Assembly: GCA_044892525.1 (NCBI GenBank)
Contig: CM097885.1
Span: forward strand, 30,940,001-31,000,000
Direction of reading: 5' to 3'
DNA: 60,000 nt
Source of the DNA: Schmidtea polychroa
Taxonomy: Eukaryota
Below, piece after piece: positions 4,245-36,600 of this stretch (position 1 is the first letter of the stretch; each line of letters opens with the position of its first letter). The position numbers and the translations under genes were made by a program. The notes below the pieces were generated by a model. It ran no database searches and was not told the origin of the DNA. It was given only the letters and a program-made list of their open reading frames with translations.

Positions 4245-4271
4245 ATCTAAAAGCTTGAAACATGTGAGTAG

Positions 4272-5151
4272 AGTAGTATGATTGGGGCCATCCAGACCAG
4301 GGGCCCTCCAGACCACATATACCCCCTCCCCCCCCGGGGGTAAAAAATTTTTTTAGAACTATTACGTAATCGATGCCTAATATTTTTAGAACTATTACGT
4401 AATCGATGCCTAATATTTTTAGAACTATTACGTAATCGATGCCTAATATTTTTAGGACTATTACGTAATCGTTGCCTAATATTTTTAGAACTATTACATA
4501 ACCGATGCCACATATTTTTAGAACGATGCCATATTATTATTTTTCAAAAATATTATTAACTGTGCTGGCGGTGACCTACCTTTTGACTTCCCAGAACATT
4601 TTGAGTTTTCAAAATTATTTGAATATTTATACATCATTTTGAAGACCAGACGGAGACAAATCTTTTGAGCTATCGAAATAATTTTTATCACTAGTGGTAT
4701 AAAAGTTATTAATTTTTTAGTCCGACACTGATTGATGAAAAAATTATTATTATTTTCAAAAATATTTTTAGAATGATGCCTAATATTTTTAGAATGATTA
4801 CGTCATACTTTTAGAACGATGCCTAATATTTTTAGAACGATGCATAATATTTTTAGAATGATTACATCATACTGTAAGAACGATGCGTAATATTTTTAGA
4901 ATGATTACATCATAATTTTAGAACGATGTCTAATATTTTTAGAATGATGCATAATATTTTTAGAATGATTACGTCATAATTTTAGAACGATGCCAAATAT
5001 TTTTAGAACGATTACGTCATACTTTTAGAACGATGCCTAATATTTTTAGAATGGTGCCTCTTATTTTTAGAATGGTGCCTCTTAATTTTAGAACTAATAA
5101 TTTTTGTTTTAATTATCGATTACATAATAATTTAATTTGTTTAAATCGTTG

Positions 5152-5189
<38 letters not shown>

Positions 5190-5428
5190 CTCCGAGTTTA
5201 TCCGGCAAGATATTCTGTCCCCCTATGGGTACTGCTCACCATAGTACTGCTCACGCTCAACAAGTCACATGGGTACTGTTCACAAAGTTACTACTAAAAA
5301 TATTTAAGACAAAACTTTAACAAAGAAATTCTAAATATTATACTTTAAATATACACTCAAACTAAAATTTATTAACACATTCAAATTCATCATCTCCACA
5401 GTTCATAACATTTTCAAATACAATTTCA

Positions 5429-5494
<66 letters not shown>

Positions 5495-5832
5495 GCGCGC
5501 AGGGAATATTATTATCATATATAGTCAGAGTCTATCCGACAAGATATTCTGTCCCCCTATGGGTATTGATCACAAGGGTACTACTCACATTCAACATGTC
5601 TCAAAGGGTATAATATAATTATTATTAAATTCTGACCAACTTAAATCAATGAAGGGGTAGAACAAAAATATATTAAGTTGCGGTATTTTAAATTTAAAAA
5701 TATTTTAAAAACTTATTTTGACACTAAAGTTTACTTAATTAACAAAGACATAATTATTGCACATGCTTTGCATAAATATTATTATTTTTTAAATTTTCAA
5801 TATTTTCTTTTAAAGTATTAACATGCGCGGGA

Positions 5833-5901
<69 letters not shown>

Positions 5902-6104
5902 GTTAACGAAAAATCTAAAATATGGTTTACACACACAACCCCTCAACCATTATTATTATTATCAATATTAATAACCTAAAATATTTTCTACACACACACA
6001 CACATGCACAACTCATTAACCATTATTATTATCAATATTAGTGAAATTCTAAAATATTTTCTACACACATATACAACCCATTAAACTTTTATTATTATTA
6101 TTAA

Positions 6105-6159
<55 letters not shown>

Positions 6160-6418
6160 GCAAATATTAGTTAAAAAGATAAATTATTTCTACACACATA
6201 CACAACCCATTAACCATTATTATTATCATTATTAGTGAAAACCTAAAATATTTTTTACACACACACACAACCCCTCAACCATTATTATTATTATCAATAT
6301 TAATAACCTAAAATATTTTCTACACACACACACACATGCACAACTCATTAACCATTATTATTATCAATATTAGTGAAAACCTAAAATATCTTCTACACAC
6401 ATATACAACCCATTAAAC

Positions 6419-6466
<48 letters not shown>

Positions 6467-6655
6467 GCAAATATTAGTCAAAAACATAAAAACACACACT
6501 CAACCAATTAACAATTATTATTATCAATATTATTATTATTGCAAATACTAGTCAAAAACTTAAAATTTTTTTTTTACACACACACAACCCATTAACAATT
6601 ATTATTATCAATATTAGTGAAAACCTAAAATATTTTCTACACACACACACACACA
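4272..6655 (+). repeat. Left terminal inverted repeat (~2.4 kb) of the Polinton-like element
   Basis: Near-identical reverse complement of 12152-14479; differences are mainly tandem-unit and (ATT)n copy number. It contains a 33-bp array (~4347-4512), a 21-22-bp array (~4762-5095), two copies of the ~90-115 bp motif, (ATT)n tracts and (AC)n-containing blocks. Confidence 0.93.
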
Positions 6656-7391
6656 ATAATCATATAATTCATTTTCTTCATTACTAAGTAAAATAATTAA
6701 AATATTGTAGTAAATTCTTTATTTACTTACTTTATGGATACTAAATCGAAAGAAATAAAGTTATATCAAAAGTATATTTAAATAAATTAAATTTAAATAA
6801 TTTAATTTAGTTATTTAAAAATATTTAAACAATTTAGTTATTTAAGCATATTTAAACATTAACATTATTATATAGTATAATTTTATATAATATTATAATT
6901 TTATGTACACTTATATATCCTTCATTTAATTTTTTAAATTCAAAATTTATAATGAAGATTCTTTGAATTAAAAAATATTCTGTTAGTATTTCCAGGCAGT
7001 AAACAACGAATTCAATAATTAAAATCTTAATTTTCATGTTGTTAGGGTTGTGGCCAGAATTTAATCGCCATCTAATCGTTTGTTCTCAATTTCGCTCATT
7101 TTTGTTCAAAACATTCAGGTGAGTTGTTATCTGGAAAGTTTCTTTGAGCTCAGTTTTGTTAAAACACTCACGGTATTTTTGAGGGACGTGACACTGGGAA
7201 TAAATTAACAATGGGTGGTCTTGCATACATGTTGTTGGTTTGAACTGTTGATTTATTTTAGAAATATGTATATTAAAAACATTTAAGGTATCATTCAGTA
7301 AAATAATATAGTATTTTTGAGTATTTTTAGTTGATTTATAAATAACAGTATTTTGATATATCAATAAAGACCATATACTCCTAGTTTATCC
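6656..7391 (-). repeat. Internal inverted duplicate (A') of 9915-10650
   Basis: The identical 92-aa and 61-aa ORFs appear on opposite strands (7086-7364/9942-10220; 6852-7037/10269-10454). The match was traced from ataatcatataattc to ctcctagtttatcc. Confidence 0.95.
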
Positions 7392-9914
7392 TTTATATTT
7401 AGTTTATATTTAATTCAATATTAAAGGAGTTAATCAAAATTTAAAATATAAAGTTATCATAATTGCTTAGTCAAATACCATTTGTTATGTATGTTTGTCA
7501 TTTTTGGATTAAATACTTTATCAAAATAATTGTTTATCACATTATTATTATTCGTTAGTCACTCATATATTAGAAATAATTTATAAATACTCATCACTTA
7601 TAGCCCCCCATTTTCCACTAATCCTCCCAACAACTATTTCTTTGAACATTGAATTAAATATTTTTTTTTATTAAAGTGATCTTTTTTATAAATTTTTATG
7701 AATTTCATGAAATAATTTTAAATAAATGCAATTAATATATTTCCATCTTATCTATGACACTTCTCGGTATATTTACATTTACGTTCCATTAATGAATAAT
7801 TCAAACCCTTATTTTCACCTTTTTGAATTTCATTATTAATTAATCATAGAATAATGATGATTCTTACCACCTGAGAATAATATTGTTAATTTTATCTCTG
7901 TGTTATTAAAATTATCTTTCGATTTTACGCTGCTTACCACTTTAGAATAAGATTTTTTATTAAAATTTGTGATAATTCGACTGATTCAATTTGATGGAGT
8001 TATTGTTAATTCGTTTTATTATATATATACTCGGAGTTTATCCGACAAAATATTTTCTCCCTCTATGGGTACTGCTTGTAAGGGTATTGGTCGTAAGGGT
8101 ACTGGTCGTAAGGGTACTGGTCGTAAAGGTACTGGTGTGTTTTAATGATTTTATTTAGGCAAATATTTGGTTATTATTTGGCATTAAATTCATTGGTAAT
8201 TTTTTAGAGTTAGCGGGATTTTACTAACATTTTTTTGTGAATTTCATGTTAATTGAAAGAATATTTAAGGTTTAGTGTTAATTCTAAGATAAATTTAATT
8301 AATTTCTTGATAATTTGCTATATTTTATTAATTTTGATGATGATGATGACTTTGTAATGATAATTTGACTAAATAATTTTTTCATATATTTTTCTAAGAA
8401 TATTTACACATTGATGAACTTTAAAATATTGAAAATCTAAAGTTGAAACAATCTAATTTTTTCACGATGATGATATATTTAAAATCTACTTGAAAATTAT
8501 TGTAAAATATACCTAAATTTAGTTTGAAAGATATATCATGTTATAATGGTTATAATTATGATCAATCAATGAGATATTATCATCTCTAGTTAGGTATTTG
8601 ATGACACATGTGGTTAAATATTTATTTTAATGAATTTTGATCTTTTAGTGGACTCTTTGAATTTAGCTACTAAATTATTTCAATGGAAGAATGTCTGTGA
8701 CAATTAAATAAAATTCATATTTTGAAGAATTTTCTATAGATTTTAAGATTTATTAAAGGGCACAAGTGGATGAAATTATATTCGGTTGGATTTAGTGAAG
8801 GTTAAGATGGTAATATATACGATTTAAGGTGTTTTAAGGGGTAAAGATATTTGGTGAGGGATCGGTTAATGTTTTGAATATTTATATATTCTTATTGGTA
8901 AAATATCAAATTTTCAAGGGAAATAGTCAGCTATGAATAGTTCCTGTGAAATTATATCGTTTTAGAGGTTGTGATGAATGTTATTGCACAGTAATTTATG
9001 TTTCAGAACCAGTTTTTATTAATTATCCACGGTTTTATTAATGGGTAATGACTAATTTACTTGGTTTTGACAATGCAATATTTGAAATATTTAGAGATAA
9101 TTGATATCAAAGGTTATTGCTTTAAATTATTTTATTTAACATTTTAAAGACGGACATTCATTATGAAGATAACGGTAACAAAAATATTGACTTAAAAGAG
9201 TTAGACATCGACAACTAAAGAAAATTTAACTTTCATGAAGGAAATTTATGATTTTAATTATATTTCCAGAAATTAAATAGGTTGAATATCAGTTAATCTA
9301 TTGAAGGAATATTGTTATCGGGTGGATAAATGATATTTTGCTAAATTACCTTTGCTAAATATTATTTTAAATGACTAAAAATAACAAAATTAAGCAATAT
9401 TCATAAATTTATCGCACAAAATGTCCATGTTTTGGTTACTCAAACATCTTAAATTTCTCGCAAAGATATATTACGTCTAATGATCATCTAATTAAATTAG
9501 AAAATAATTGTTACTTTATAATATATATTTCTAAATAATAGGCCCCTTAATTGGATAAATGATAACCATATTTCTATTATGACTCCTTTAATTATTTATG
9601 CCTCAAACAAATTTACTCCAAATGATAAAGAATTTAAAATTATCAATGAATAATGACCATGTTTTTCTCATATTATTAACTATTGTAACGAACATTAGAT
9701 GAATAAATTAATTTTTGCTTTAAATGACTACAAAGTTAACCAATAAATTAGTCGCTCGACATAAGTGTAAAGTTACATTTAAAATATTCACGAATTTCTG
9801 ATCATCTCACTAAATTACCTAAGAATTTCTAAATGATTAATATAGCCTTGCGACATGTTGAATGTGACCAGTACCCTTGCTAGCAATACCCATAGGGGGA
9901 CAGAATATTTTGTC

Positions 9915-10650
9915 GGATAAACTAGGAGTATATGGTCTTTATTGATATATCAAAATACTGTTATTTATAAATCAACTAAAAATACTCAAAAATACTATAT
10001 TATTTTACTGAATGATACCTTAAATGTTTTTAATATACATATTTCTAAAATAAATCAACAGTTCAAACCAACAACATGTATGCAAGACCACCCATTGTTA
10101 ATTTATTCCCAGTGTCACGTCCCTCAAAAATACCGTGAGTGTTTTAACAAAACTGAGCTCAAAGAAACTTTCCAGATAACAACTCACCTGAATGTTTTGA
10201 ACAAAAATGAGCGAAATTGAGAACAAACGATTAGATGGCGATTAAATTCTGGCCACAACCCTAACAACATGAAAATTAAGATTTTAATTATTGAATTCGT
10301 TGTTTACTGCCTGGAAATACTAACAGAATATTTTTTAATTCAAAGAATCTTCATTATAAATTTTGAATTTAAAAAATTAAATGAAGGATATATAAGTGTA
10401 CATAAAATTATAATATTATATAAAATTATACTATATAATAATGTTAATGTTTAAATATGCTTAAATAACTAAATTGTTTAAATATTTTTAAATAACTAAA
10501 TTAAATTATTTAAATTTAATTTATTTAAATATACTTTTGATATAACTTTATTTCTTTCGTTTTAGTATCCATAAAGTAAGTAAATAAAGAATTTACTACA
10601 ATATTTTAATTATTTTACTTAGTAATGAAGAAAATGAATTATATGATTAT
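9915..10650 (+). repeat. Internal segment A, inverted partner of 6656-7391
   Basis: Reverse complement of 6656-7391 with very few substitutions. Confidence 0.95.
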
Positions 10651-10796
10651 GAAGAAGATGAACCAGACAAAATGGTGAAACACTAAATGACTTATGTTCT
10701 GGATTTAGAAATTTCTTATTAAAACATGAATTATAGAAAAAAATGAACCAGACAAAATGGTGAAACACTAAAGGAGTTATAGTTCCGGATTTCTTA

Positions 10797-11264
10797 AATG
10801 AATTAGCTGATTGTGGGTGTCCTTCAACATGAATTATCAGACTTAAATTATGTAAACTTTCAACGATTGTCAAGAAAAATGGGAAAAACCGATGTTTTAG
10901 CAATTAGATATTGTAAAGTACTACCTGAAGAATATTATTATTAATGTAAGACATGAATTAATTCTTTAAAATATATATATTATATTTAGGTATCTGTGTT
11001 TTATGGTGGGAAATGACATTGAAAAAGTATACCACAAATAACAGTTGCCTAATTTATCAAGCCTGTGACGATAAAATGCTAGATAATGTAAGTTAATTGC
11101 TTTTAAATCAATATAAATTTTAGCAATGATAGTTGACGCCACATCAGAAACTAAGAAATATGTCCAATTCGCAAGATGTATTCCATGAAATCACTATCAA
11201 ATGGCCTGATGGAGATGATAATTTTGAGATAGATTACCAACAGAAGAGCGAGAAAAATTTGTAA
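10797..11264 (+). pseudogene. Decayed spliced cargo gene of unknown function inside the Polinton-like element
   Basis: Two GTAAG...TTTAG mini-introns (10946-10989 and 11088-11123) separate coding-like blocks (LIVGVLQHELSDLNYVNFQRLSRKMGKTDVLAIRYCKVLPEEYYY; ...SQDVFHEITIKWPDGDDNFEIDYQQKSEKNL*). Stops interrupt the frame. Confidence 0.45.
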
Positions 11265-12151
11265 ATTAAATATAATAGGGTTGGGTGGGTCCTCTTTATC
11301 CCTTAATTAATATATATATATTTACAAGCTGATCGTCGTGGTGGGCGGTTGTAATCCAACTAGTGGGAGGCCTCTGTAAATATATATTTGTGTTAGTGAA
11401 AACATTAATTAATTTGGTTATAGTGCCAATGACGCATGTATTTTGAAATTATACGTTTCGAATGTGGTGGTAGTTGACTACCCATGCTAGGCGTAATGTT
11501 CCATACGGAAAACTATAATGCCCAGGTTCTTTTGACCCCACTTGGGGGAGGCACAGACGACCCTTGTGGACGCGAACAAATATCCACCGTGTCTTTCAGG
11601 CACAGATATTTGGTCACTGCTCATTAGGCCTGGCAATAATAAATGCATACACTTTGCCTTGTCCTCTCTTGTCTTTATTTTTATCGTTTAAATAGTGTGT
11701 GTGATAAGTTTTATTTACTAACCCTAATTAATATACCCTTGCGATATGTTGAGTGTGACCAGTACCCTTGCTACCATTACCCATAGGGGGACAGAATATC
11801 TTGTCGGATAGACTAGGAGTATATACACCCATGTTAAACAAGGTATGTGTATATAGAATGTATGTGTAAAATTATCGCTCCTTATTGAAAATTTCATGTA
11901 AAGGCAAACACAGAATACTGCAAACATATAATAATACTCTACCCCATAACTTAGTGTGTAAAAATTATTTAAGGTTTTTTCACTAATAATAATAATAATT
12001 ATAATAATAATAATGATAATAATAAAGTTTAATGGGTTGTATATGTGTGTAAAAAATATTTGAGGTTTTCACTAATATTGATAATAATAATGGTTTATGA
12101 GTGTTTTTATGTTTTTGACTAATATTTGCAATAATAATAATGGTTAATGGG

Positions 12152-12341
12152 TTGTGTGTGTGTGTGTGTAGAAAATATTTTAGGTTTTCACTAATATTGA
12201 TAATAATAATTGTTAATGGGTTGTGTGTGTGTAAAAAAAAAATTTTAAGTTTTTGACTAGTATTTGCAATAATAATAATATTGATAATAATAATTGTTAA
12301 TTGGTTGAGTGTGTGTTTTTATGTTTTTGACTAATATTTGC

Positions 12342-12392
<51 letters not shown>

Positions 12393-12651
12393 GTTTAATG
12401 GGTTGTATATGTGTGTAGAAGATATTTTAGGTTTTCACTAATATTGATAATAATAATGGTTAATGAGTTGTGCATGTGTGTGTGTGTGTAGAAAATATTT
12501 TAGGTTATTAATATTGATAATAATAATAATGGTTGAGGGGTTGTGTGTGTGTGTAAAAAATATTTTAGGTTTTCACTAATAATGATAATAATAATGGTTA
12601 ATGGGTTGTGTATGTGTGTAGAAATAATTTATCTTTTTAACTAATATTTGC

Positions 12652-12709
<58 letters not shown>

Positions 12710-12910
12710 TTAATAATAATAATAAAAGTTTAATGGGTTGTATATGTGTGTAGAAAATATTTTAGAATTTCACTAATATTGATAATAATAATGGTTAATG
12801 AGTTGTGCATGTGTGTGTGTGTAGAAAATATTTTAGGTTATTAATATTGATAATAATAATAATGGTTGAGGGGTTGTGTGTGTAAACCATATTTTAGATT
12901 TTTCGTTAAC

Positions 12911-13000
<90 letters not shown>

Positions 13001-13338
13001 TCCCGCGCATGTTAATACTTTAAATGAAAATATTGAAAATTTAAAAAATAATAATATTTATGCAAAGCATGTGCAATAATTATGTCTTTGTTAATTAAGT
13101 AAACTTTAGTGTCAAAATAAGTTTTTAAAATATTTTTAAATTTAAAATACCGCAACTTAATATATTTTTGTTCTACCCCTTCATTGATTTAAGTTGGTCA
13201 GAATTTAATAATAATTATATTATACCCTTTGAGACATGTTGAATGTGAGTAGTACCCTTGTGATCAATACCCATAGGGGGACAGAATATCTTGTCGGATA
13301 GACTCTGACTATATATGATAATAATATTCCCTGCGCGC

Positions 13339-13425
<87 letters not shown>

Positions 13426-13664
13426 TGAAATTGTATTTGAAAATGTTATGAACTGTGGAGATGATGAATTTGAATGTGTTAATAAATTTTAGTTTGAGTG
13501 TATATTTAAAGTATAATATTTAGAATTTCTTTGTTAAAGTTTTGTCTTAAATATTTTTAGTAGTAACTTTGTGAACAGTACCCATGTGACTTGTTGAGCG
13601 TGAGCAGTACTATGGTGAGCAGTACACATAGGGGGACAGAATATCTTGCCGGATAAACTCGGAG

Positions 13665-13720
<56 letters not shown>

Positions 13721-14479
13721 CAACGATTTAAACAAATTAAATTATTATGTAATCGATAATTAAAACAAAAATTATTAGTTCTAAAATTAAGAGGCACCAT
13801 TCTAAAAATATTAGGCATCGTTCTAAAAGTATGACGTAATCGTTCTAAAAATATTTGGCATCGTTCTAAAATTATGACGTAATCATTCTAAAAATATTAG
13901 GCATCATTCTAAAAATATTAGACATCGTTCTAAAATTATGATGTAATCATTCTAAAAATATTAGGCGTCGTTCTAAAAGTATGATGTAATCATTCTAAAA
14001 ATATTATGCATCGTTCTAAAAATATTAGGCATCGTTCTAAAAGTATGACGTAATCATTCTAAAAATATTAGGCATCATTCTAAAAATATTTTTGAAAATA
14101 ATAATAATTTTTTCATCAATCAGTGTCGGACTAAAAAATTAATAACTTTTATACCACTAGTGATAAAAATTATTTCGATAGCTCAAAAGATTTGTCTCTG
14201 TCTGGTCTTCAAAATGATGTATAAATATTCAAATAATTTTGAAAACTCAAAAAGTTCTGGGAAGTCAAAAGGTAGGTCACCGCCAGCACAGTTAATAATA
14301 TTTTTGAAAAATAATAATATGGCATCGTTCTAAAAATATGTGGCATCGATTACGTAATAGTTCTAAAAATATTAGGCATCGATTACGTAATAGTTCTAAA
14401 AAAAAATTTTTCCGCCGGGGGGGAGGGGGTATATGTGGTCTGGAGGGCCCCTGGTCTGGATGGCCCCAATCATACTACT
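12152..14479 (-). repeat. Right terminal inverted repeat (~2.3 kb) of the Polinton-like element
   Basis: Reverse complement of 4272-6655. Confidence 0.93.
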
Positions 14480-15100
14480 GAGTAACAATAATAATAAAAT
14501 TTGGTTATATAATACATTATATACATAAAATACATACAAGCAACAGAAATTTAAAAAGAAGATATTTGAAAAACTTCAATTTGAACTTCCAAAATTGCAT
14601 TTATGTAAATTAAAAGGCACAATTTCAAAAACAAAATTGTATAACAGTGGGTGGGTTACAATTATCCCTATTTTACCCTTTTGTGCTGCTTCCAGAGTGA
14701 CCCAAGATACAACTGATTCGTTCTACCATCTAACACCCGTTGAGTGATCAACGTTGGTAATGTGTCGCATAGGTGAATACTTGCGAATAGTGAGCATACT
14801 CCGGTATACTGTAATCCTCAAGTATCCTGGAGGGTTTACGGACTGCCTATAGAAGGCTTATGTCCGATTTCGCTTAGGTTCCATTTTTCTACGCTTCACA
14901 AATTCTCACCCACGAATGTTATAAAAGGATATCCTAGCCCTTAAGAAATAACTCTGAGGAAATCTACTGCACACTCGAATAATAAATAAACACTGCGCAA
15001 TCACATCTTTTATTTGAATATAAATGTAAAATAGATCAATTGGTAATAGCACGATCAGAGTCATCATCGTTAGTTAGCGTTCGATTAATGTTTTCAAAGA

Positions 15101-19681: not shown

Positions 19682-19974
19682 TGTTAGACGCAATTAAATT
19701 CAAGTCTTCTTCAAGCATTTATTTTTATAACAACTTCAAAATTGTGCCGTTTACTAGAGTATTTAAACACCGAGGCGTGATAATTATTAACATTAATGAA
19801 TTTACTGGTCATATATTTAATTGATTTAATTTAATATAATTTAATATAATATGATATAATTTAATATAGAATTTAAATATAAAGATTTAACAGAAATAAT
19901 TATTTCTACTAACTGATCTCACTTCTACCATTTAACCATAATAATTTTATATAGAGATTTACTAACTCCTTACA
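19682..19974 (-). repeat. 3' LTR of the Gypsy element (293 bp)
   Basis: Direct repeat of 24318-24590. I count 8 substitutions and a 20-bp indel. The PPT aaagaaaggggga (19975-19987, minus) abuts it. Confidence 0.96.
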
Positions 19975-22900
19975 TCCCCCTTTCTTTAAAATGTTTTAAC
20001 TTTTCTATATTCCTCGTTATTTTCCTCCCGTTTTCGTCTGCTAATAAGTAACTTCTTTCATGATTTCGTTTTATTACTGTGTATGGTCCTTCATATCTCT
20101 CGTGATCTTTGTTTCTAATTTCTTGTTTCACCAATACTTTGTCCCCTACTTCTAAGTTCCTAGTTGTGCCAATTTCTTTCGCTTGCTGTCTTTTAGCCTC
20201 TAATTTCCGCATGATTTCATTTCTATCCACTTCATTATTACTATGCCATTGCGATCTATTATTCTTTCTTCCAAATATAATTTCTGCTGGACTCACTCCA
20301 TTAGTTTTTTGAGCTGTCGCATTTAAAACGTATTCTATATCAGGTATTATTTCTGCCCAACTTTTTTTAACTCCTTCTCTGAGTGACGCGTTAATATAGT
20401 CTCTTATAGTACGAAATTGTCTTTCAATTACACCATTAGTATTATGATGATACGGACTCGAAAATATCAACTCAATTCCTGCTGCCTTTGCTAGTTCTTT
20501 AATGCTATTTGCTTCGAAATTCTTTCCACAATCAACATGTAATTCCTTAGGGGCTCCAAATTTCAATATCCAATTATTTAACAAAACTGCCTTTATTGTA
20601 TTTTCATCTTGCTTTCTAATAGGAGTTAGAGATATATATTTACTGTAATGATCGATTATTGCACAAATATATTTTTCACCTCTGAAGGTTTCTCTTAATG
20701 GACCGCAAATATCCATGTATATTTTCTCCATAGGTTCTGAAGCTTGAATTACTTGGGTTTTTTCTTTTGACTTTGTAGTTAAAACTTTGTTTTTCTGGCA
20801 TGCTTCACATATTGAAATAGTCTCTTTTACTTCATTTAGCAAATCTTCCATATCAAAATTGTTCCTAATATATTTCATAACTTTTTCTACTCCTGCGTGG
20901 CATAATAATAAATGTGTTTCCTTAATCATTTCTCGTCTTTTTGTTTCTGGTATCCATATTTTGTTTTGATTGGTATAGATAATATTTCCTTTTAATATAT
21001 ATTTATTATTTTTCCTTTCATTGATTTGATTTTTGATATTTTGTATTTCTGCATTATCTCTTTGCCATTCATTTCCATTATTTTCGGTCATCAATGTTAA
21101 CAATCTAGTTTTTAATCGCCCTGATTTGGGGTTATCATGGTCCATCAAACATTGTACACATTTGCCGCATGTATTTCTAGACAGCATATCTGCATTCGTA
21201 AGCGCCGTACCTTTTCTGAACTCCATTTTTATGTCTAAACTGCTCAAGTATTTTATCCACGTTTGGAACTGTGCTGTTATAGGTTTCTTTGTCGTTAACA
21301 TAAAAGTCATTGCTTTATGATCTGTGCGCAAAACAAACCGTTTACCGTATAAATAATGGTTGAAATGGCGACAGAAATAATATATAGCCAAAAGCTCTTT
21401 TCGTGTTATACAATATCCTCTTTCATGGCTGCTCATTGCATGGGATCCATATGCAATAACGTGTTCATGCCCCATTTCATCTCTTTGTGATAATACAGCT
21501 CCAATTGTATCAAAGCTTGCGTCTGTATCTAATATGAATTCTTTCTTGAAATCTGGAAATACGAGAATTGGCGCTGTAGTCAACGCCATTTTCATTTCTT
21601 CGAAAGCTTTCTCACATTCCTCAGTCCAGATTATTTTTTCACTATTGCTTCCACATATGCTTTCTAGCGCTTTTCATTTTGTTGCATATTCCTTAATAAA
21701 TCTCCGATCATAGTTACATATACCTAAAAAGCTTCTCAAATTCTTTATACACTTAGGCCTTTGAAATGATTTAATAGCCTCAATTTTACTTTGATCTGTC
21801 CGAATCCCCTGACTGTTAATAATGTGCCCTAAAATCTTTACTTCGCTCTTTAATAACTGACATTTTTATGGGTTGATTCTCAATTTAGCTTCCCTTATTT
21901 TCTCTAGAACTTTTCCAAACACATTGTAATGTTCTTCAATTGTTCTTGAAAAAATTAAAATATCGTCTAAATACACCATAACTCCTTCTTTCCATAGATC
22001 TTTCAATATTTTTGTCATTAATTCATGGAATGTACCCGGTACCGCCGCAATGCCAAAAGGCATTCTATTAAAACAAAATTGCCCTTCTTTAGTAGAAAAT
22101 GCTGTCTTTTCTAGCGATCCTATGTCCAAATTCACTTGATAATAAGCGTTCCCAAGATCTATAGAACTAAAGTACTTAGATCCATGTAATGTATCTAAAA
22201 TTTCTTCTACATTCGGCATAGGAAAAGCTTGTTTTCAGTAATCTTATTAAGCTGTCTAAAATCTAAACAAAGTCTGATATCTTTTTTGTCTTTTTTCCAC
22301 ACGCATACTAACGGCGTATTCCAAGGTGAATTACATCTTCTTATGATATCATTATTTTCTAAATTCTTTATGGCAGCATTTATTTTCTCCTCTAAATTGA
22401 TGGGTTGTCTTCTGAGTTTTATCATAATTGGCCCTTCTTTTGTGATGATTTTATGTGCAATTAAATCAGTACATCCGATATCCCAGTTATTAGCCATAAA
22501 ACACTTTTATTGTTTTTAACAATCTCTAACAGTCTTTTATTTTCGTTTAATCTTAGAATTTCTATTGCTTTTTGACATCTCTCGTTATCTGTAATCTTTT
22601 CCCCAAATCTAGCTTCTATTTCACACACAAATTCATTATATCCTTCTTCATTTTGCTTGATGTAGTTTAATTCAATTCCAAACTCTTTCTGTAATTCCAC
22701 TCCGCCTATTATATCTGGAACAATATTTTTAACTATTATAAATGTTATTTTTCTTTCCATATTACCAATTCTAACATCAATATATATTTTTCCGATTGTC
22801 TCTAATTTACTATCATTTGCACATCTTAACATCTCATCTGTTTTTATGATTTTCACATTCACTAATTTGTCCACAACTGCTTCTGCCATTACATTTACTC

Positions 22901-22988
22901 TTGCTCCTGTATCTAGTAAGCATTCCATTCTATAGCCCTGAATTTCAAGAGTTGTACTCGGTCTACCTTGCATTTTTTCATAACTCAA
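19970..22988 (-). pseudogene. pol: Gypsy pol (protease, RT, RNase H, integrase) broken by frameshifts
   Basis: Protease LLDTGA (22461-22988); RT SPWNTP...CLDFRQLN and MPFG...YLDD (21866-22497); RNase H DAS...YCITRKELLAI; integrase HHCC, DDE core and GPY module (19970-21595). Frameshifts lie near 22490, 22220, 21866 and 21670. Confidence 0.96.
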
Positions 22989-23355
22989 TTTCGGTCGTTT
23001 CCATTCATCTTTAGTGAAAATATTTTGCTCCTCTGATATTTCATTAATCCATCCAATTTCCTTTCTCTCTAATTTATCTTCTACCTTTTAATAAATTTAT
23101 AAACTTTTTCATTTACTATTTTATCATTATATTCTGCTTCTTTAATTTCATTATACTCTTCTTGATTCTTCGGATTATTATTATTATTATTTATTAAAGA
23201 TCAGCATTAAAATAACTATAACATTTAAAATTATTTAACGGAAACTTTTTAAAATTACCAATTTTATTACATAAAGGTTCTACATTATTATATATAAGGA
23301 TTATTTACATTATTAAAATTATTATGACCAATATTTACATCAATATCAAAATTAC

Positions 23356-24318
23356 CTAGTATATTGCTCCGATCATTGGCATCGTCTCATCATTAGCTTC
23401 AATTGCTGCAATTGTTCTTCCTGGATTGTGGATCTTTTGTTGATAGCTTGTGGTTCGATGGGCATAATAATTATTGTTTCTCATGTTTGAATTAGTTTGA
23501 AACTTCCTTCTTTCCAAATTTGTATAGCAGTCAATCTCCTTGTGTCCACGTAAGTGACATCTCTGGCATTGAATAGTTGAACATTCTCGCCGTACGTGGC
23601 CTTCAACTCCGCATGCAAAACACGTCATTTTCTTTTTCATTTGGCATTCTCGACTAACATGACCAGTTTTCTTGCATGTCCAGCATTCCAATTGTCGGTT
23701 ACTGACGTTTCGCTGCTTGAAATTATTATTTCCGTTTACCATTCCTCTTTGAGCAACATCTCTGTAGCTTCTGTAGTTTTGTACAACCGGTGAAGTCTTC
23801 ACAACATTAATATGACCCATAATTTTGTTTACCTTTTCTAATTTCTTTATTGTCGCTTTTATTTCTTCTGATGTTTTCAAATCTTTCATCTCGATCTCTT
23901 TTTTAACTTCTCGATCTCTTACACAGTTTGTAAGCAGGCATTTTTCTATTTCTTCTTCATCCCATTTGTGCGCTATTAATTTCTTTGTCATCTTTTTAAT
24001 TTTCTCTATAAAAGTTTCGGCTGAATCTGATCCTTGTTCATAACTCAAAGCTCCTTTTAGATCATCCATTAATGATGTCGCTTTCGAAAATGCATATCGA
24101 AGTTTCTCTTCCATAGTTTTTCCTTCGGCTGCTTCATAATCTTCCATTAGCGATCTGTCAAGTAATGTTGTAGTTAATATTACTTGCATCCTAATTGTTG
24201 TTTTTGTCGCGCCAAAAAACCTTTGACAATCCTTGATAAAATTTTCTAAATCATCGCCTTTGTGAAATTTCTCAGGTAATAGTCTGCTTATCAATAAATC
24301 CGTGGTCGTGGTCGCCAT
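23356..24318 (-). CDS. gag: Gypsy gag with three CCHC zinc knuckles
   Basis: Open frame from ATG at 24318 (MATTTTDLLISR...) containing CWTCKKTGHVSREC, CFACGVEGHVRREC and CQRCHLRGHKEIDC. Confidence 0.93.
   Translation of the reverse strand: MATTTTDLLISRLLPEKFHKGDDLENFIKDCQRFFGATKTTIRMQVILTTTLLDRSLMEDYEAAEGKTMEEKLRYAFSKATSLMDDLKGALSYEQGSDSAETFIEKIKKMTKKLIAHKWDEEEIEKCLLTNCVRDREVKKEIEMKDLKTSEEIKATIKKLEKVNKIMGHINVVKTSPVVQNYRSYRDVAQRGMVNGNNNFKQRNVSNRQLECWTCKKTGHVSRECQMKKKMTCFACGVEGHVRRECSTIQCQRCHLRGHKEIDCYTNLERRKFQTNSNMRNNNYYAHRTTSYQQKIHNPGRTIAAIEANDETMPMIGAIY
24307..24317 (-). promoter_or_regulatory. Primer binding site (probably tRNA-Arg)
   Basis: TGGCGACCACG immediately follows the 5' LTR and is complementary to a tRNA 3' end ...CGUGGUCGCCA. 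The tRNA-Arg assignment is from recall, not a search. Confidence 0.75.
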
Positions 24319-24590
24319 GTTAGACGCAATTAAATTCAAGTCTTCTTCAATCATTTATTTTTATAACAACTGCAAAATTGTGCCGTTTACTACAGTATTT
24401 AAACACCGAGGCGTGATAATTATTAATATTAATGTAATTACTGGTCATACATTTAATTGATTTAATTTAATATAATTTAATATAGAATTTAAATATAAAA
24501 ATTTAACAGAAATAATTATTTCTACTAACTGATCTCACTTCTACCATTTAACCATAATAATTTTATATAGAGATTTACTAACTCCTTACA
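24318..24590 (-). repeat. 5' LTR of the Gypsy element (273 bp)
   Basis: Direct repeat of 19682-19974 with TG...CA ends. Confidence 0.96.
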
Positions 24591-25075: not shown

Positions 25076-27359
25076 CCGTATTTTCGCGCATATAACCCGC
25101 GGGTTATACAAGTTTTCCAAACGAATGGCAGCTGTGCGGGGTATACAAAGGTGCGGGGTTTACAAAATTTATTTTACTCATAAACATAGCATAACGGAAA
25201 CTATGGACATACCGGTGGGTCTTTATACCTCCTATAGTTCGCTGTGTGGTTGTGAAATGTAAAATGAAAGCTTTATGAACATCTCATTATAAACCTCAAG
25301 AAAACCAATAGTACCGATGCGGCAGAGAATCGTTAATATACTAGTAATCAAATGTAACAAGTAGGTAAGCAACTAAACTAATTTGCCGATACCAGTAGTG
25401 TCGAAACGTATAGACTACAATGCATGCAATACAGCCGCAATCAATCGCCAGTCTCACTAATGTCACTGTCCTCGCTATAGTTAGTGAAGCCATCGAAACT
25501 CGTATCATATTCACTGTCTCCTTCAAATAAGCGAAGCATGTTGGCAACAGCAGTTGTGTCATAAATCGACTCTTCATCACTATTATCATCGTCAGTATCA
25601 GCGTTCACATTGTCGGCCGAAATGAAGCTGCCCTCTACTGCTGGCTCTGAATTAGCTTCACTGACTGTTAGCAGGCCAGCCTTCTTGAAACCATTGCGAA
25701 TAGTTTCAGTGCTGATTTGCTGCCACGCTGCCAGAACCCATTTGCATACTTCAATGTACGTAGCACGTCTCTGATTTCCTGATGGTGTGAATGTGTGTTC
25801 TCCTTCACTCATCCATTTCTCCCATTCGTTGCGGACAAAACACTTGAATGGATGATTAACAGCGATGTCAAGTGGCTGAAGCTTACATGTTAAGCCACCC
25901 GGAATGACAGCAATGTGCGCACCGGTCTTATTGATCTGTTTGTGAACAGACGGCTCTTTGTGTGCAGCCATTGCATCAAAAATCAACAACGACTTTGGCA
26001 GAAAGAATCCACCCTGTCTAGCACGAAAGCATCGTTCAGTCCACTCTTTCATCACGTCCGTGTTCATCCATCCTTTTTTGTTGCACAGTACGATTGCTCC
26101 CTGAGGCAGTTTCTCACGTGGCATTGTCACTCTTTTTAATATAATCAATGGTTTCAACGTCTCACCGGCAGCTGAGCACGCCAGGACAACCGTGAAGCAG
26201 GTGCGTTCATGTCCAGTTGTGGTAATAGCAACCGTTTTACAACCACTTTCCGCTACAGTGCGAGTTGCTGGAATATCAAAAGACATGAGTACCTCATCCA
26301 TATTATAGACAGCAGAAGGATTTAAATTCTGTTCAACGATATCCTTTCTAACAAATTCCTGAAAGTCGTTAACTTTCACTTCCCAATTCTCTGGCAGTTT
26401 CTGGCCAACAGTTGTCCGTGCACGAACCGACAACTGATTACGTGTCATGAATTTAAAAACCCAGTTGTTGCTACCAGTGAAATTATCCATCTTCATTTCA
26501 GCAGCCATTATTTTCGCCTTCAGTTTGATACCAACAGTTGACACTGCCCTGTTGTTTTCACGCTGAGAGCGAACCCATGCTGCGAGGTTTGTCTCCAGCT
26601 GTGGCCATCTAACCTTTCACCCTCGACGAGCTCTTTTGCGAGGATTAATTTGCTGTAGACTTTCAATGTCTTTTCGCCATTCGCGAACTGACTTTTCATC
26701 AACGTCATACTCTCTTCCAGCAGCTCTATTACCATTTGTAGCAGCAACTGCACAAACTTGCAGCTTAAAATCGGCTGTATATGAATTACGCTTTGGCATT
26801 TTTAGGCTTAAAAGACTTTACTGAGTACTGATTAGAATTTATACACTTTTTTTTATACACTTTAATTGCATGTGCTGCACACTATACGCTACGAAGTTCA
26901 AACTACAAGAATACCCGTGCTGCTGATTACCCCAAGAATTAATAGCCTACACAATAAGGCCGAGCACCAGCCGATGCACAATCAGGCCAATCGTAGGGCC
27001 CAGCTCAGCTGCTGCAGCAAATCTTTCTCCTACCATCACCAGATAACTAGGTCAACGACTTTCTGTCAAAACAACATACTACAGATACGACGTAGGCTCG
27101 TATCGTATTTCACATGCGTGTTGCACTCCATGTATCGCTTGTTGGAACAACAACTACAGCACGATTGCGTCTCGAGGGACAGACGTCTGATAAGTAACAA
27201 CCTTATGTACTGGTAGTTTACGGCAAGTCTCACTTTGCACATGCGGGGTATATAAGGGTGCGGGTCGTACGATTTTGTTTTTACTTATTTTGTAATTTGT
27301 GCAGGGTATACGCGTGTGCGGGTTATGCGCGTATGCGGGGTATATGCGCGAAAATACGG
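25076..27359 (-). mobile_element. pogo-superfamily DNA transposon (DD35D, POGK/Passer-like)
   Basis: TIRs CCGTATTTTCGCGCATATA(A/C)CCCGC at both ends; TA TSD (25074-25075, 27360-27361); subterminal GCGGG(G/T)TAT repeats; transposase inside. Confidence 0.96.
25441..26799 (-). pseudogene. pogo transposase with one premature stop
   Basis: MPKRNSYTADFKLQV...VREWRK (Brinker-type DBD), TGA at 26617-26619, then in frame KVRWPQLETNLAAWV (CENP-B HTH). Catalytic NMDE, IFDAM and QPLD with 35 residues between the 2nd and 3rd D. Confidence 0.93.
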
Positions 27360-33600: not shown

Positions 33601-36600
33601 AAAGAGCAAAGCTACAAAACCCAAACGAATTCCATGTAAATAAATTTTTTTCATCACGGATACACTATCTGTGACCACAGCAGTTTATGATTTACTATTT
33701 CAAAAGCTTTAGTTGCCCGCATAGATTCTACAATTCGTATCAATCCCCAGCAAAATATATTATCCTTAGAGTGGATGTAAAGGTACAAACTGATGTCCAC
33801 TCATCTAATGCCATGGACCACTATCGGTTATCGCGTATGTATAGAAAATAGCATCAGTGTTGCGATCTCACGAAATGAGTTTCCTCGCATTGGTCGAATG
33901 AGTTATCGCGAATTATTGATTTTTAAGTGCAAAGTTCAATTTCTGACTTTAGTCAAAACTAATTTTGTAAACAATACTAATTAAATAAATAAATAGTAGC
34001 AAATATGTGGATTTTTTTCTGGATTTGTGATAAAACTCTCATGTGTCCATCGGAAACTTGTCAGTCGGGTGTGTCACAAAATACTTCTGCCATTTAAGGT
34101 TTGATTAGTCGGTTTGTAATTGTTAAATAACATTACCTAGTGACTCCTTTCGATTTAAAATTATTATATTCGTGTTTATCTTTTCATTTGCCACCTACTT
34201 ATATCTGTTTGCCTCAAGAGATATTATTTATTTTTTGCATTTAATTTAATTTTGTACACTCCATTTTTATTTGCAGATTTTTTTGAATAACCCTAACAAA
34301 TATAAAATTTTTTTTATTTAGTAAATTACATAAAAATCAAAACTATTCGATTTGTTCATTATTGCCTTCGAGTATATTTGCTTGAGAAAACAGATCGGGC
34401 CTTTAATATTATAAAATAACTCGTCTTTTGTATAACAATAATTAATGGGGAAAATTTCAAAGTCTTAATTATTCAATGATTTTAGAACTCCTTTAGTTCC
34501 ACACTCCAACAACAATATCTTGCTTGGTACCCAGTTGTACTAGGTTTGCTCAGGACAACTAATATCATATTTTTGCTTGGTTACATCACCAACCGAAACT
34601 CCTATGCCAGTCTAACACTATTTCTGCAGCGAATCAAATTGATTGTCAGTAATAGTGTACAAATGACGTCTAAAACTAATCCGTAATTTTTAATTTTTAT
34701 ACTTTAATTTATTAAAAGTTTTATTTAAAATATAAATATTTTTAACAATTTAATTTTATCTTCATTTATATTCAGATTATAGATGAATTATTTATAGGTA
34801 AAATAAATTAAAATATTGATTTATATTATGAAATCAAAGAAAAATAAATGAAATTGATCAGTGGTGAAGGATATGATAATTTTAATTAAACACATCGATT
34901 ATTTAAATAAATAGTTTGTTTAAATATTTGACATTTATATTTGACATTTTATTGAATATAATTTATGGAAATCAAAAAAATAAGTCTGATCAAAATCAAA
35001 ACATTAATCTGGTACCAAAAACAGCTAAATCTTTGATCGAATGCCAAATTTTTAAGAAACTGTTTAGCAGACTCAGACATATTTTCGTCAATTTAATTAG
35101 GCAAAGACTGACTCCAGACATCCAAGAAATAATAGCATTTTAGGACAATTCTATCCGGTCACGACTCCTTGTACGTTTCAGAGACATTAGTCGAAAAATG
35201 CTCTGAAACTGACAAATTATAACACCAGATTCATAGAGACCTATGGGAGAACTATGGAACCTTTTTATGATCAACAATGAAAAGAAAGTTTTCAACCATT
35301 AATAATAAAGTTGTGTGAAGCTACTATTTTAAATTATACAATTGAAAGAATAACATTTATTTGGACACCAGATTTGGAGCTATAAAAAAAACTCCTTGGG
35401 GTACATGAATAAGTTATGTATTTTAAGGAATACCATTCCACGAAAAATTTCTGTACATATAAATTGTTTTACATGAAATGCTGGAAAAGGGACATATACA
35501 GAAAACCAGTAACTCTTGTGTTTAAAATAAATTAATCAAACATTGACAGATGATTATTGACTATTGAAAAGAATAATAATCTGTTAAACATGGTTCCAAG
35601 GCCTTTTGCAGGTTTTATAACAAAAGCACTACACAAAGAATTATATCACGTTGGAGCCTCTGACTTCCACATTAATAAAAATATCAACTTAATTAAATTA
35701 AAATTAATGTGCAAAATATTTGTGTTTTTAATGCTTTTAAATAATTAGTAAATTATTAAATTTTAAATGTTAAAATTTTAAAAATAATATATTATTTTAA
35801 TTATAATTTTTAAAGGAATGAAATGTTTTTATTAAAATGTATTATATATAACAGGGCTGGCAAAAGCGTCGACCGCGTAGCTATCGAAAGTAGCCCGCTA
35901 GCACTATGGAAAATTGCATATAAGAATCAGTTTTTTATTTATTGAATTTCTAACTTTATAAACATATTTAAAATAAGTTTCGATTCATATGACAAAAAAA
36001 TTCCAATAAGAAACATAATATTAGTCAGATAACACTCAGAGTGTAGTAAATTTTTAGTTTGAAATTCAAATATATACAGTTAGCTAATAATCAGAATAAA
36101 TTTCATGTGTTTGAACAAGTAGGCCATAAAATAAAAGCAAAACATTGACGCTACAATCTTCGATAAGGAATAAAAAAATAAAAAACAACCAAAATAAAAT
36201 ACAACAAACGTGTGTTTGTCTATTTCAATTTTGAAATCAAATTGTTTTCGTTAGAAAAATTTGAAAGCTTGAAGTATTCAGTATTGAATAATACCTGCTT
36301 ATAATATTAATTTCAAAATTTTTTTATTAAAAAAAATTCTTTATAAAAGTTAACATTTTTAATTTTTGAGTATGTAAGTGTGTTTAACATTAATTTTCAT
36401 ATTTAATTTATTTTAGCTTTTATTATTTTCTTGTTTTACCCCCAATGACACAACCGGCCAAAAAAACTAAAACGTACCATTATAATACTTAATGGGAACA
36501 GGAATTTTTTTTCATAATGATGAAAGATAAGTGTGTTTGTCTCATTTGTAATTCAAACGTAGCACTACCTAAAAGAGCTAACGTTGAACGACATTTTCGA

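What the first reader, a model, noticed from the sequence alone, without database searches (positions are those of the whole stretch)
5183..13669. Seven copies of a ~90-115 bp cassette ending in TATATA, all pointing outward from the element centre
Seen: the core (GTACCC-type repeats)-CCCATAGGGGGACAGAATATCTTGTCGGATAAACT(A/C)GGAG-TATAT(A) lies on the minus strand at ~5183-5295, ~5518-5612 and ~8022-8136. It lies on the plus strand at ~9843-9932, ~11730-11826, ~13221-13316 and ~13560-13669, with a fragment at 7374-7391. Only four copies are explained by the TIR duplication; the other three are independent and diverged. The three internal copies each sit just upstream of coding-like sequence (7990->7560, 9942->, ATG at 11831). 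Inference: a reiterated element-specific promoter cassette, as in viral stage-specific promoters, or a replication/recombination signal. I know of no description of this motif.
Basis: partly seen in the sequence, partly recalled or inferred. Interest (0 to 1): 0.75.

Follow-up and report, generated by a model that had tools for sequence, protein, structure and literature searches.

The report
Repeated control cassette in gene-less Polinton
A gene-less, virus-like jumping element carries five versions of the same ~100-base DNA module ending in a TATA-like word, most likely a protein-binding control signal that the element has copied within itself, although nothing yet shows that it drives transcription or replication.

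Summary
The seven copies are real. All lie inside one 10.2-kb gene-less element with Polinton-type AGTAGT/ACTACT ends and 2.4-kb TIRs, and none lies in the other 49.8 kb. There are five independent versions: a 48-bp core (89% mean identity, 38 of 48 columns invariant) plus 15-bp-phased upstream units, with conservation ending sharply after TATAT. The 'fragment' is only the end of an inner inverted duplication. 'All outward' mostly reduces to four same-direction right-arm copies plus mirror copies.

The link to ORFs is weak. Only 1 of 3 internal copies precedes a stop-poor frame, the ATG at 11831 opens 12 codons, and no interior protein has a known homologue. No RNA structure, no consistent TSD and no HINE ends were found. 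Public contigs show a huge, diverse family, and a second species shares the cassette while lacking most of the interior.

Best reading (0.42): a block-copied, protein-binding promoter/enhancer-type module kept by the gene-less element, working like baculovirus hrs. Function is untested. Earlier scan notes describe gene-less Polinton foldbacks and an SRP head elsewhere in this genome, but not this cassette.

The parts
4272..14479 (.). Gene-less Polinton/Maverick-type element, 10,208 bp, ends AGTAGT...ACTACT
   Evidence: Terminal 49 bp are exact reverse complements; no Pfam or NCBIfam match below E 0.02 in the interior frames
4266..4271 (+). Left copy of a putative 6-bp target-site duplication (GAGTAG)
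   Evidence: 5 of 6 identical to the right flank
14480..14485 (+). Right copy of the putative TSD (GAGTAA)
4272..6656 (+). Left TIR, about 2.4 kb
   Evidence: BLAST 4449-6656 vs 12152-14402 at 95.5%; 4272-4428 vs 14324-14479 at 94.9%
12152..14479 (-). Right TIR
5184..5295 (-). Cassette c1 (mirror of c7), followed directly by (TAA)n
   Evidence: 101/102 identical to c7
5518..5613 (-). Cassette c2 (mirror of c6)
   Evidence: 102/102 identical to c6
7372..7391 (-). Last ~20 bp of c4, carried by the inner inverted duplication; the break lies between the hairpin-like 16-mer and GGATA
8024..8136 (-). Cassette c3, with 4.7 tandem 15-bp units upstream of the core; the only independent minus-strand copy
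9839..9934 (+). Cassette c4
   Evidence: 93% identical to c5 over 98 bp with unrelated flanks
11730..11825 (+). Cassette c5
13220..13315 (+). Cassette c6 (right TIR)
13559..13670 (+). Cassette c7 (right TIR)
6656..7391 (-). Inner inverted duplication of 9915-10650 (736 bp, 99.9%), extending the foldback symmetry
9921..10454 (+). Stop-poor frame downstream of c4 (177 codons, one internal stop); no known homologue; mirrored at 6852-7385
11328..11371 (+). 44-nt match to the Alu-domain head of SRP (7SL) RNA, bracketed by a 13-bp inverted repeat
   Evidence: Rfam RF00017 29.6 bits, E 5.8e-6, below the gathering score of 70; bracket read
4346..5094 (+). Distal TIR arrays (33-bp and 21/43-bp units) rich in TTACGTAA/TGACGTAA words (bZIP-like; label recalled); mirrored at 13779-14402
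11984..12999 (+). (TAA)n/(TG)n compound satellite between c5 and c6; mirrored at 5834-6655

Best explanation
The cassette is a double-stranded-DNA, protein-binding control module: two to five TAC(C/T) sites in 15-bp phase, then a G+C-rich 48-bp core ending in a TATA-like word. It has been copied as a block to unrelated places inside a gene-less Polinton-type element. Same-direction copying in the right arm plus foldback copying to the left arm gave the outward pattern. The element keeps it for its own propagation, as a promoter/enhancer-type site that recruits host or helper-Polinton factors and opens chromatin, in the way baculovirus homologous regions serve as enhancers and origins. It is not a set of gene-specific stage promoters. 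Shown: the anatomy, block copying, confinement in this window, lack of RNA structure, and sharing with a second species. Inferred: selection on the core, protein binding, and any role in transcription or replication.
For: Core identity is 89% (38 of 48 columns invariant) against 73% in the 19 nt upstream and 27% in the 30 nt after TATAT. The core exceeds the upstream part at p<0.05 in 3 of 10 non-independent pairs and is higher in 9 of 10. TAC(C/T) recurs at -32, -47, -62, -76/77 and -92. Flanks are unrelated: z<=2.0 in 19 of 20 flank comparisons; the exception is c6/c7 upstream. Interior frames have no known homologue while the cassettes remain 83-94% alike, so they were copied or maintained after any genes decayed. 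In contig run X1 the three cassette bins sum to 8.9 times the median interior bin, near the 7 expected from this layout (summed depth is not a copy number). In run X16 (another species label) the cassette bins are 36-724 times the interior median, and a c3-like contig aligns over 8034-8137 with 19 differences and other flanks. Precedents: hrs are reiterated conserved units with enhancer and origin function (PMC6669502 passages; PMC4535591 abstract start). Polintons of a planarian are transcribed when PIWI repression is lifted (PMC8532177 passages).
Against: There is no direct evidence of binding, transcription or replication. c4 vs c5 is uniformly similar (core 45/48, upstream 18/19), as a recent neutral block copy would be. 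TATAT[AT] is a common word (376 hits in the window), and only 2 of 5 versions match TATAWAWR. TATATA reads the same on both strands, so direction is not fixed. The core has no long palindrome of the hr kind (only CCCATAGGG and an imperfect 16-mer). No genome was held, so confinement to Polinton-type elements is shown only for 60 kb. Sharing with a second species also fits an independently mobile unit.
Confidence: 0.42

Rival explanations
1. Relict gene promoters: each cassette was the TATA promoter of a Polinton ORF in the autonomous ancestor, and the genes have since decayed.
For: Conservation stops right after TATAT. c4 precedes a 94-codon stop-free run (0 of 300 shuffles), and four ENA gene calls show the same c4-plus-flank layout in sister copies. 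In X16 the c4 downstream region stays deeply covered to about 10306. Shared short promoter motifs are known in Polinton-like viruses (10.1101/2022.07.28.501842 passages).
Against: c3 and c5 have no unusual downstream frame. The ATG at 11831 is too close to the TATA and opens 12 codons. The TIR copies point into microsatellite and satellite DNA. The ENA calls read stops as tryptophan, start inside the cassette and have no known homologue. Known viral promoter motifs are about 8 bp, not 48-100 bp at about 90% identity.
Confidence: 0.17
2. Neutral block copies: a 100-bp piece copied several times by template switching in a repeat-prone foldback element, with no present function.
For: c4/c5 identity is uniform. 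The element is full of slippage arrays and recent mirror duplications. One duplication breakpoint falls inside c4.
Against: The same 3' edge recurs in all five versions. The core is better kept than the upstream units in the older pairs. The cassette is shared with a second species where most of the interior is nearly absent.
Confidence: 0.14
3. A captured RNA polymerase I start site (rDNA gene or spacer promoter): initiation at the TAGGGG inside the core, 15-bp subrepeats upstream, and a short leader ending at TATAT.
For: 4 of 5 versions match TANGRRRR, the transcribed half of the arthropod rDNA start consensus TATA>TANGRRRR; spacer promoters are reiterated (PMC2590618 passages). An earlier unchecked note reports an rDNA-spacer piece in a Polinton of this genome. 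A likeness to the Drosophila pre-rRNA start is recalled, not tested.
Against: The four bases before the match are CCCA, not TATA, in every copy. TANGRRRR occurs 120 times in the window. Cassette variants in X1 are many and diverse, unlike a homogenised rDNA unit. No host rDNA spacer was available; the one planarian rRNA supplement searched held none of four cassette words.
Confidence: 0.12
4. A nested mini mobile element (MITE, Helentron-derived HINE, or SINE/LINE 3' tail) that inserted several times into the larger element.
For: Sharp edges and unrelated flanks. c4, c5 and c6 have TATA at both ends and a weak inverted likeness of the ends. c1/c7 run into (TAA)n like a retroposon tail. A hairpin-like 16-mer lies about 20 bp from the 3' end. 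RNA-guess run X19 shows variants with flanks not in this window.
Against: 0 copies in the 49.8 kb outside the element (0.17^4, about 8e-4 for five random placements; my arithmetic). There is no consistent TSD, and c1 and c3 lack the 5' TATA. There are no inverted subTIRs and no TT flanks, which define HINEs (PMC4067079 passages). Cassette depth in X1 is close to what this family alone predicts.
Confidence: 0.1

Closest known systems
Polinton/Maverick elements and their non-autonomous derivatives
   Same: (AGT)2...(ACT)2 ends, long TIRs and a 6-bp TSD (5 of 6 here), as described in PMC8097293 (passages).
   Different: No pPolB, integrase, ATPase, protease or capsid gene is detectable. The TIRs take nearly half of the element and the interior is partly folded back. 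A reiterated 50-100-bp module was not found described for Polintons in my four searches.
Baculovirus homologous regions (hrs)
   Same: Multiple, highly similar, non-coding units dispersed in one virus-like genome between unrelated flanks; a candidate protein-binding array (PMC6669502 passages; PMC4535591 abstract start).
   Different: No 24-30-bp imperfect palindrome core. The units are directional and end in a TATA-like word. They lie in an integrated linear TIR element. Enhancer and origin activity are untested.
Shared promoter motifs of virophages and Polinton-like viruses (AAAATTGA early motif of PgVV-14T)
   Same: One motif repeated within a small Polinton-related genome (10.1101/2022.07.28.501842 passages).
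   Different: That motif is about 8 bp, borrowed from a helper giant virus and placed before start codons. Here the module is 48-100 bp and only 1 of 5 versions precedes a stop-poor frame.
HINE/DINE-1 non-autonomous Helentrons
   Same: Short unit with a palindrome-like stretch 8-35 bp from the 3' end.
   Different: No inverted subTIR pair, no TT flanks, and not dispersed outside the host element in this window.
rDNA spacer promoters (RNA polymerase I)
   Same: Reiterated same-direction units, upstream subrepeats, and a TANGRRRR match in 4 of 5 versions.
   Different: The upstream TATA of the consensus is replaced by CCCA, the units are not in an rDNA array, and no host spacer was available to compare.

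Membership tests
Polinton/Maverick (host element) | (AGT)2//(ACT)2 or (AG)3//(CT)3 termini | tested here: met
   AGTAGT at 4272 and ACTACT at 14479 (feature from PMC8097293)
Polinton/Maverick (host element) | Long terminal inverted repeats | tested here: met
   About 2.4 kb, 95.5%
Polinton/Maverick (host element) | 6-bp target-site duplication | tested here: inconclusive
   GAGTAG vs GAGTAA, 5 of 6
Polinton/Maverick (host element) | Core genes (pPolB, integrase, ATPase, protease, capsids) | tested here: not met
   No relevant match in Pfam, NCBIfam or PDB sequences; so at most a non-autonomous derivative
Polinton/Maverick (host element) | Ends shared with an autonomous partner | not testable with these tools
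   No genome held; terminal 18-mer absent from viral contigs
Pol II TATA promoter of element genes | TATA box of TATAWAWR type | tested here: inconclusive
   TATAT invariant in 5 of 5; full consensus in 2 of 5 (consensus recalled)
Pol II TATA promoter of element genes | ORF downstream at a usable distance | tested here: not met
   Stop-poor frame after 1 of 5 versions only
Pol II TATA promoter of element genes | RNA 5' ends about 25-30 nt past the TATA | not testable with these tools
   Only assembled contigs were offered
Baculovirus hr-like enhancer/origin | Multiple conserved non-coding units dispersed in the element | tested here: met
Baculovirus hr-like enhancer/origin | 24-30-bp imperfect palindrome core | tested here: not met
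   Only a 9-bp and an imperfect 16-bp dyad; folding z-scores between -1.6 and +1.4
Baculovirus hr-like enhancer/origin | Enhancer or origin activity | not testable with these tools
   Needs an experiment
HINE / DINE-1 | Inverted 12-15-bp subTIRs near both ends | tested here: not met
   The TACCC units are direct repeats (feature from PMC4067079)
HINE / DINE-1 | TT flanks at both ends | tested here: not met
   Flanks shown
HINE / DINE-1 | Short palindrome 8-35 bp from the 3' end | tested here: inconclusive
   Imperfect 16-mer about 20 bp from the end, broken in 2 of 5 versions
MITE / SINE | Own TSD and dispersal outside the host element | tested here: not met
   No consistent TSD; 0 copies in 49.8 kb; rest of the genome not testable
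rDNA (Pol I) promoter | TATA>TANGRRRR at the start site | tested here: inconclusive
   Downstream half in 4 of 5, upstream half in 0 of 5
rDNA (Pol I) promoter | Presence in the host rDNA spacer | not testable with these tools
   No genome; the planarian rRNA supplement gave no match
Structured RNA / ribozyme | Rfam match or covarying pairs | tested here: not met
   No Rfam hit on any cassette; 0 compensatory changes in 8 predicted pairs and 5 named pairs; only 5 sequences

The most novel reading that the evidence does not exclude
Gene-less Polinton satellites behave like defective-interfering viral genomes: they multiply the cis-signal that Polinton replication or packaging proteins bind. The cassette would then be the first visible internal replication/packaging (hr-like) signal of an animal Polinton, and its copy number a means of out-competing the autonomous helper. 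A variant of equal novelty is that the signal is a captured RNA polymerase I start site.
Probability: 0.2. Interest if true: 0.72.

Novelty: new variant of a known kind. Interest (0 to 1): 0.4.

Why it matters
How Polintons are transcribed, replicated and packaged in animals has not been shown, and their cis-acting sequences beyond the terminal few bases were not found described in my searches. A sequence that a gene-less derivative keeps and multiplies while its interior has no recognisable genes is a natural candidate for what the helper machinery or host factors bind. It gives a short, well-defined target for footprinting, reporter and 5'-end mapping. If it proves to be neutral duplication or a nested mini-element, it is an ordinary feature of a repeat-rich genome.

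Tried and rejected
No genome was held, so no genome-wide scan was possible.

Exact-pattern scans found nothing in viral contigs, JGI metagenomes or prokaryote genomes. A protein-based viral scan found no relative.

No RNA holder was listed; this is no evidence on expression. In RNA-guess run X11, bins 10154-10612 downstream of c4 have almost no cover, and the cassette bins are 6-11 times the median against 2.6-3.5 times in X1. Contig depth cannot rank expression, so neither observation is used. Two RNA-guess contigs ending near 11694 coincide with a common variant at 11697 and were not counted as an RNA end. Joints linking c4 to c5 are explained by their 93% similarity and were not counted as deletions.

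Coding in the cassette was rejected: one frame is open through the core in 4 of 5 versions, but differences fall on all three codon positions (by eye). RNA or DNA hairpin function is unsupported. A canonical Helitron 3' end (hairpin plus CTAG) is seen only in c4 and c5, and conservation continues past it, so it was rejected. An L2-type GGAUA stem-loop (recalled) forms only in c5 and c6 and was not pursued.

Recalled likenesses of 10770-11250 to a Helitron helicase and of 10050-10300 to a Penelope GIY-YIG nuclease got no support; the single-sequence model had pLDDT 45. An old tandem duplication of the c6 and c7 units is only suggestive (3 of 1000 shuffles, but 30 of 770 control windows score as high).

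No tRNA was found. No planarian snRNA-promoter sequence was found to test a PSE+TATA reading, and the planarian Inr matrix could not be read from the supplement. The host lineage was not determined here: the RUN-domain exon has one unnamed 91% relative and otherwise at most 45% identity; 'flatworm' comes from an earlier unchecked note.
Full report
Observation. The seven copies are present on the stated strands. A 36-nt degenerate pattern over the core finds 7 matches in the 60-kb window and none in 100 dinucleotide shuffles. A profile built from five copies finds the same seven at E 2e-24 or better, and the best hit outside the element has E 3.2. The two TIR pairs are 101/102 and 102/102 identical, so there are five independent versions: c1/c7, c2/c6, c3, c4 and c5. 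The fragment at 7372-7391 is the end of a 736-bp inverted duplication (6656-7391 = 9915-10650, 99.9%) whose breakpoint falls inside c4.

Host element. All copies lie in 4272-14479, bounded by AGTAGT and ACTACT. The first and last 49 bp are exact reverse complements, and the flanks are GAGTAG and GAGTAA. The TIRs are about 2.4 kb at 95.5%. These ends and a 6-bp TSD are the Maverick/Polinton marks given in PMC8097293 (passages); the TSD matches 5 of 6. No interior frame matches Pfam, NCBIfam or PDB sequences in a meaningful way (0 of 12 long frames; best E 0.022 among 33 segments; best E 0.12 among 21). It is therefore a gene-less, partly folded-back element with Polinton-type ends; an autonomous partner could not be sought. 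Contigs of run X1 show a very large, diverse family: 70,144 contigs were laid on 7400-11980, with cover in 30 of 30 bins. Earlier unchecked notes call the host a flatworm rich in Polintons; I did not establish the lineage.

Anatomy of the cassette. A 48-bp core is 83-94% identical between versions (mean 89%, 38 of 48 columns invariant). The 19 nt upstream are 73% identical, and the 30 nt after TATAT are 27% identical. The core is 38-46% G+C in a 25% element. Upstream, TAC(C/T) recurs in 15-bp phase at -32, -47, -62, -76/77 and -92, and c3 has 4.7 tandem 15-bp units. The core beats the upstream part at p<0.05 in 3 of 10 pairs (all involving c1) and is higher in 9 of 10; c4 vs c5 is uniform. Flanks are unrelated in 19 of 20 comparisons (z at most 2.0). 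The exception is the stretch upstream of c6 and c7 (z 4.0), which is only weakly significant against real control windows (30 of 770). There is no RNA-structure signal: no Rfam hit on a cassette, no compensatory change, and folding z between -1.6 and +1.4 in 20 folds. There is no consistent TSD.

Orientation. c4, c5, c6 and c7 all read + in the right part. c1, c2 and the fragment are their mirror copies, and only c3 is an independent minus copy. Same-direction block copying plus foldback copying therefore accounts for most of 'all outward'. TATATA is also its own reverse complement, so an inward-reading promoter is not excluded.

Relation to ORFs. Within 500 nt downstream, the longest stop-free run is unusual only after c4 (94 codons, 0 of 300 shuffles). 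It is not unusual after c3 (80 of 300), c5 (100 of 300), c6 (50 of 300) or c1 (219 of 300). The ATG at 11831 is 5 nt past TATATA and opens 12 codons. Four ENA gene calls (P0115-P0118) show that sister copies have the same c4-plus-flank layout. However, they begin inside the cassette, read stops as tryptophan, and have no Pfam, Atlas or meaningful PDB match; the model has pLDDT 45.

Related sequence. Four of 24 listed runs were laid, all as contigs. In X1 the three cassette bins sum to 8.9 times the median other bin; 7 is expected if every family member has this layout. Summed depth is not a copy number, but nothing suggests a far more numerous free-standing mini-element. In X16, which carries another species label, the cassette bins stand 36-724 times above the interior median. 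There, c4 and about 370 bp downstream are deeply covered, and a c3-like contig has other flanks. X19 shows cassette variants with flanks absent from this window. So the module is older or more widely shared than this family's interior. That fits constraint or use by sister families, and also leaves room for independent mobility. No RNA start, strand or level can be read from these data.

Mechanism. The most likely reading (0.42) is a protein-binding DNA module, a phased array of sites plus a core ending in a TATA-like word, that the gene-less element has block-copied and keeps for its own propagation as a promoter/enhancer-type site. The key inference is timing: the cassettes are about 90% alike while no gene is recognisable, so they were copied or maintained after any genes were lost. 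It would work like baculovirus hrs (reiterated enhancer/origin units; PMC6669502 passages; PMC4535591 abstract start), but it lacks their long palindrome and is not a member of that class. Polintons are transcribed in a planarian when PIWI control is lifted (PMC8532177 passages), so promoter activity is plausible and testable. Rivals are relict gene promoters (0.17), neutral copies (0.14), a captured Pol I start site (0.12) and a nested mini-element (0.10). For the Pol I reading, half of the arthropod consensus TATA>TANGRRRR from PMC2590618 passages is met in 4 of 5 versions, but the word occurs 120 times in the window. For the mini-element reading, the HINE features of PMC4067079 passages are not met. 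Binding, transcription and replication roles are all inferred.

Literature. A search with six cassette words returned two unrelated papers with one word each (listing only). Searches for Polinton promoter motifs and for planarian non-autonomous Polintons (listings) showed no description of such a module. The library lacks most subscription papers and Repbase, so a repeat-library entry may exist. Passages of 10.1101/2022.07.28.501842 give the nearest described case, an 8-bp early motif in a Polinton-like virus. Passages of PMC10558129 (supplement search), PMC6884822 (supplement), PMC2770079, PMC11649923, PMC7650587 and 10.1101/2025.02.07.637071 gave no sequence with which to test host snRNA, rDNA or Inr promoters. 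Figure-only logos and bioRxiv supplements could bear on this and were not seen.

Verdict. The feature is real, well defined and apparently undescribed: a reiterated cis-module inside a non-autonomous Polinton-type family, with the ORF-promoter story weakened and function unshown. It is a new variant of a known kind; interest 0.40.

Noticed in passing
window 11328-11371 (+): A 44-nt match to the Alu-domain head of SRP (7SL) RNA inside the element (Rfam 29.6 bits, E 5.8e-6, below gathering), bracketed by a perfect 13-bp inverted repeat at 11314-11326 and 11375-11387.
   Followed up: partly
window 9921-10454 (+), mirrored 6852-7385 (-): A 177-codon frame with a single internal stop in DNA of about 24% G+C. 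Sister copies in ENA are called as genes only by reading TGA as tryptophan. No homologue is known.
   Followed up: partly
window 10154-10306: The most deeply covered bin in the second-species run X16 (above the cassette itself), while neighbouring interior is almost uncovered; possibly a piece of a separate abundant repeat.
   Followed up: no
window 4346-5094 and 13779-14402: Distal TIR arrays of 33-bp and 21/43-bp units are packed with TTACGTAA, TGACGTAA and TTACGTCA words that resemble bZIP sites (label recalled), like the host-factor sites in adenovirus ITRs (recalled).
   Followed up: partly
   Followed up: no
window 12990-13010 and 13320-13341 (+): A CCC..GCGC word starts both ~300-bp TIR units that end in c6 and c7, and a CCCATGTTAA look-alike follows c5; the units may come from an old tandem duplication (weak statistics).
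   Followed up: partly
window 7392-7412 (-): The target side of the inner duplication junction holds an 11-bp repeat with the element's only TATAAAC and an 8-nt microhomology to the cassette end, suggesting template switching.
   Followed up: partly
window 19970-24354 (-), 25441-26616 (-), 36493-38304 (+), 53321-53728 (+): Other window content: a Gypsy-like gag/pol element, a pogo-like and a hAT-like transposase (labels by eye, not searched), and a RUN-domain exon (Pfam PF02759, E 2.9e-6).
   Followed up: partly
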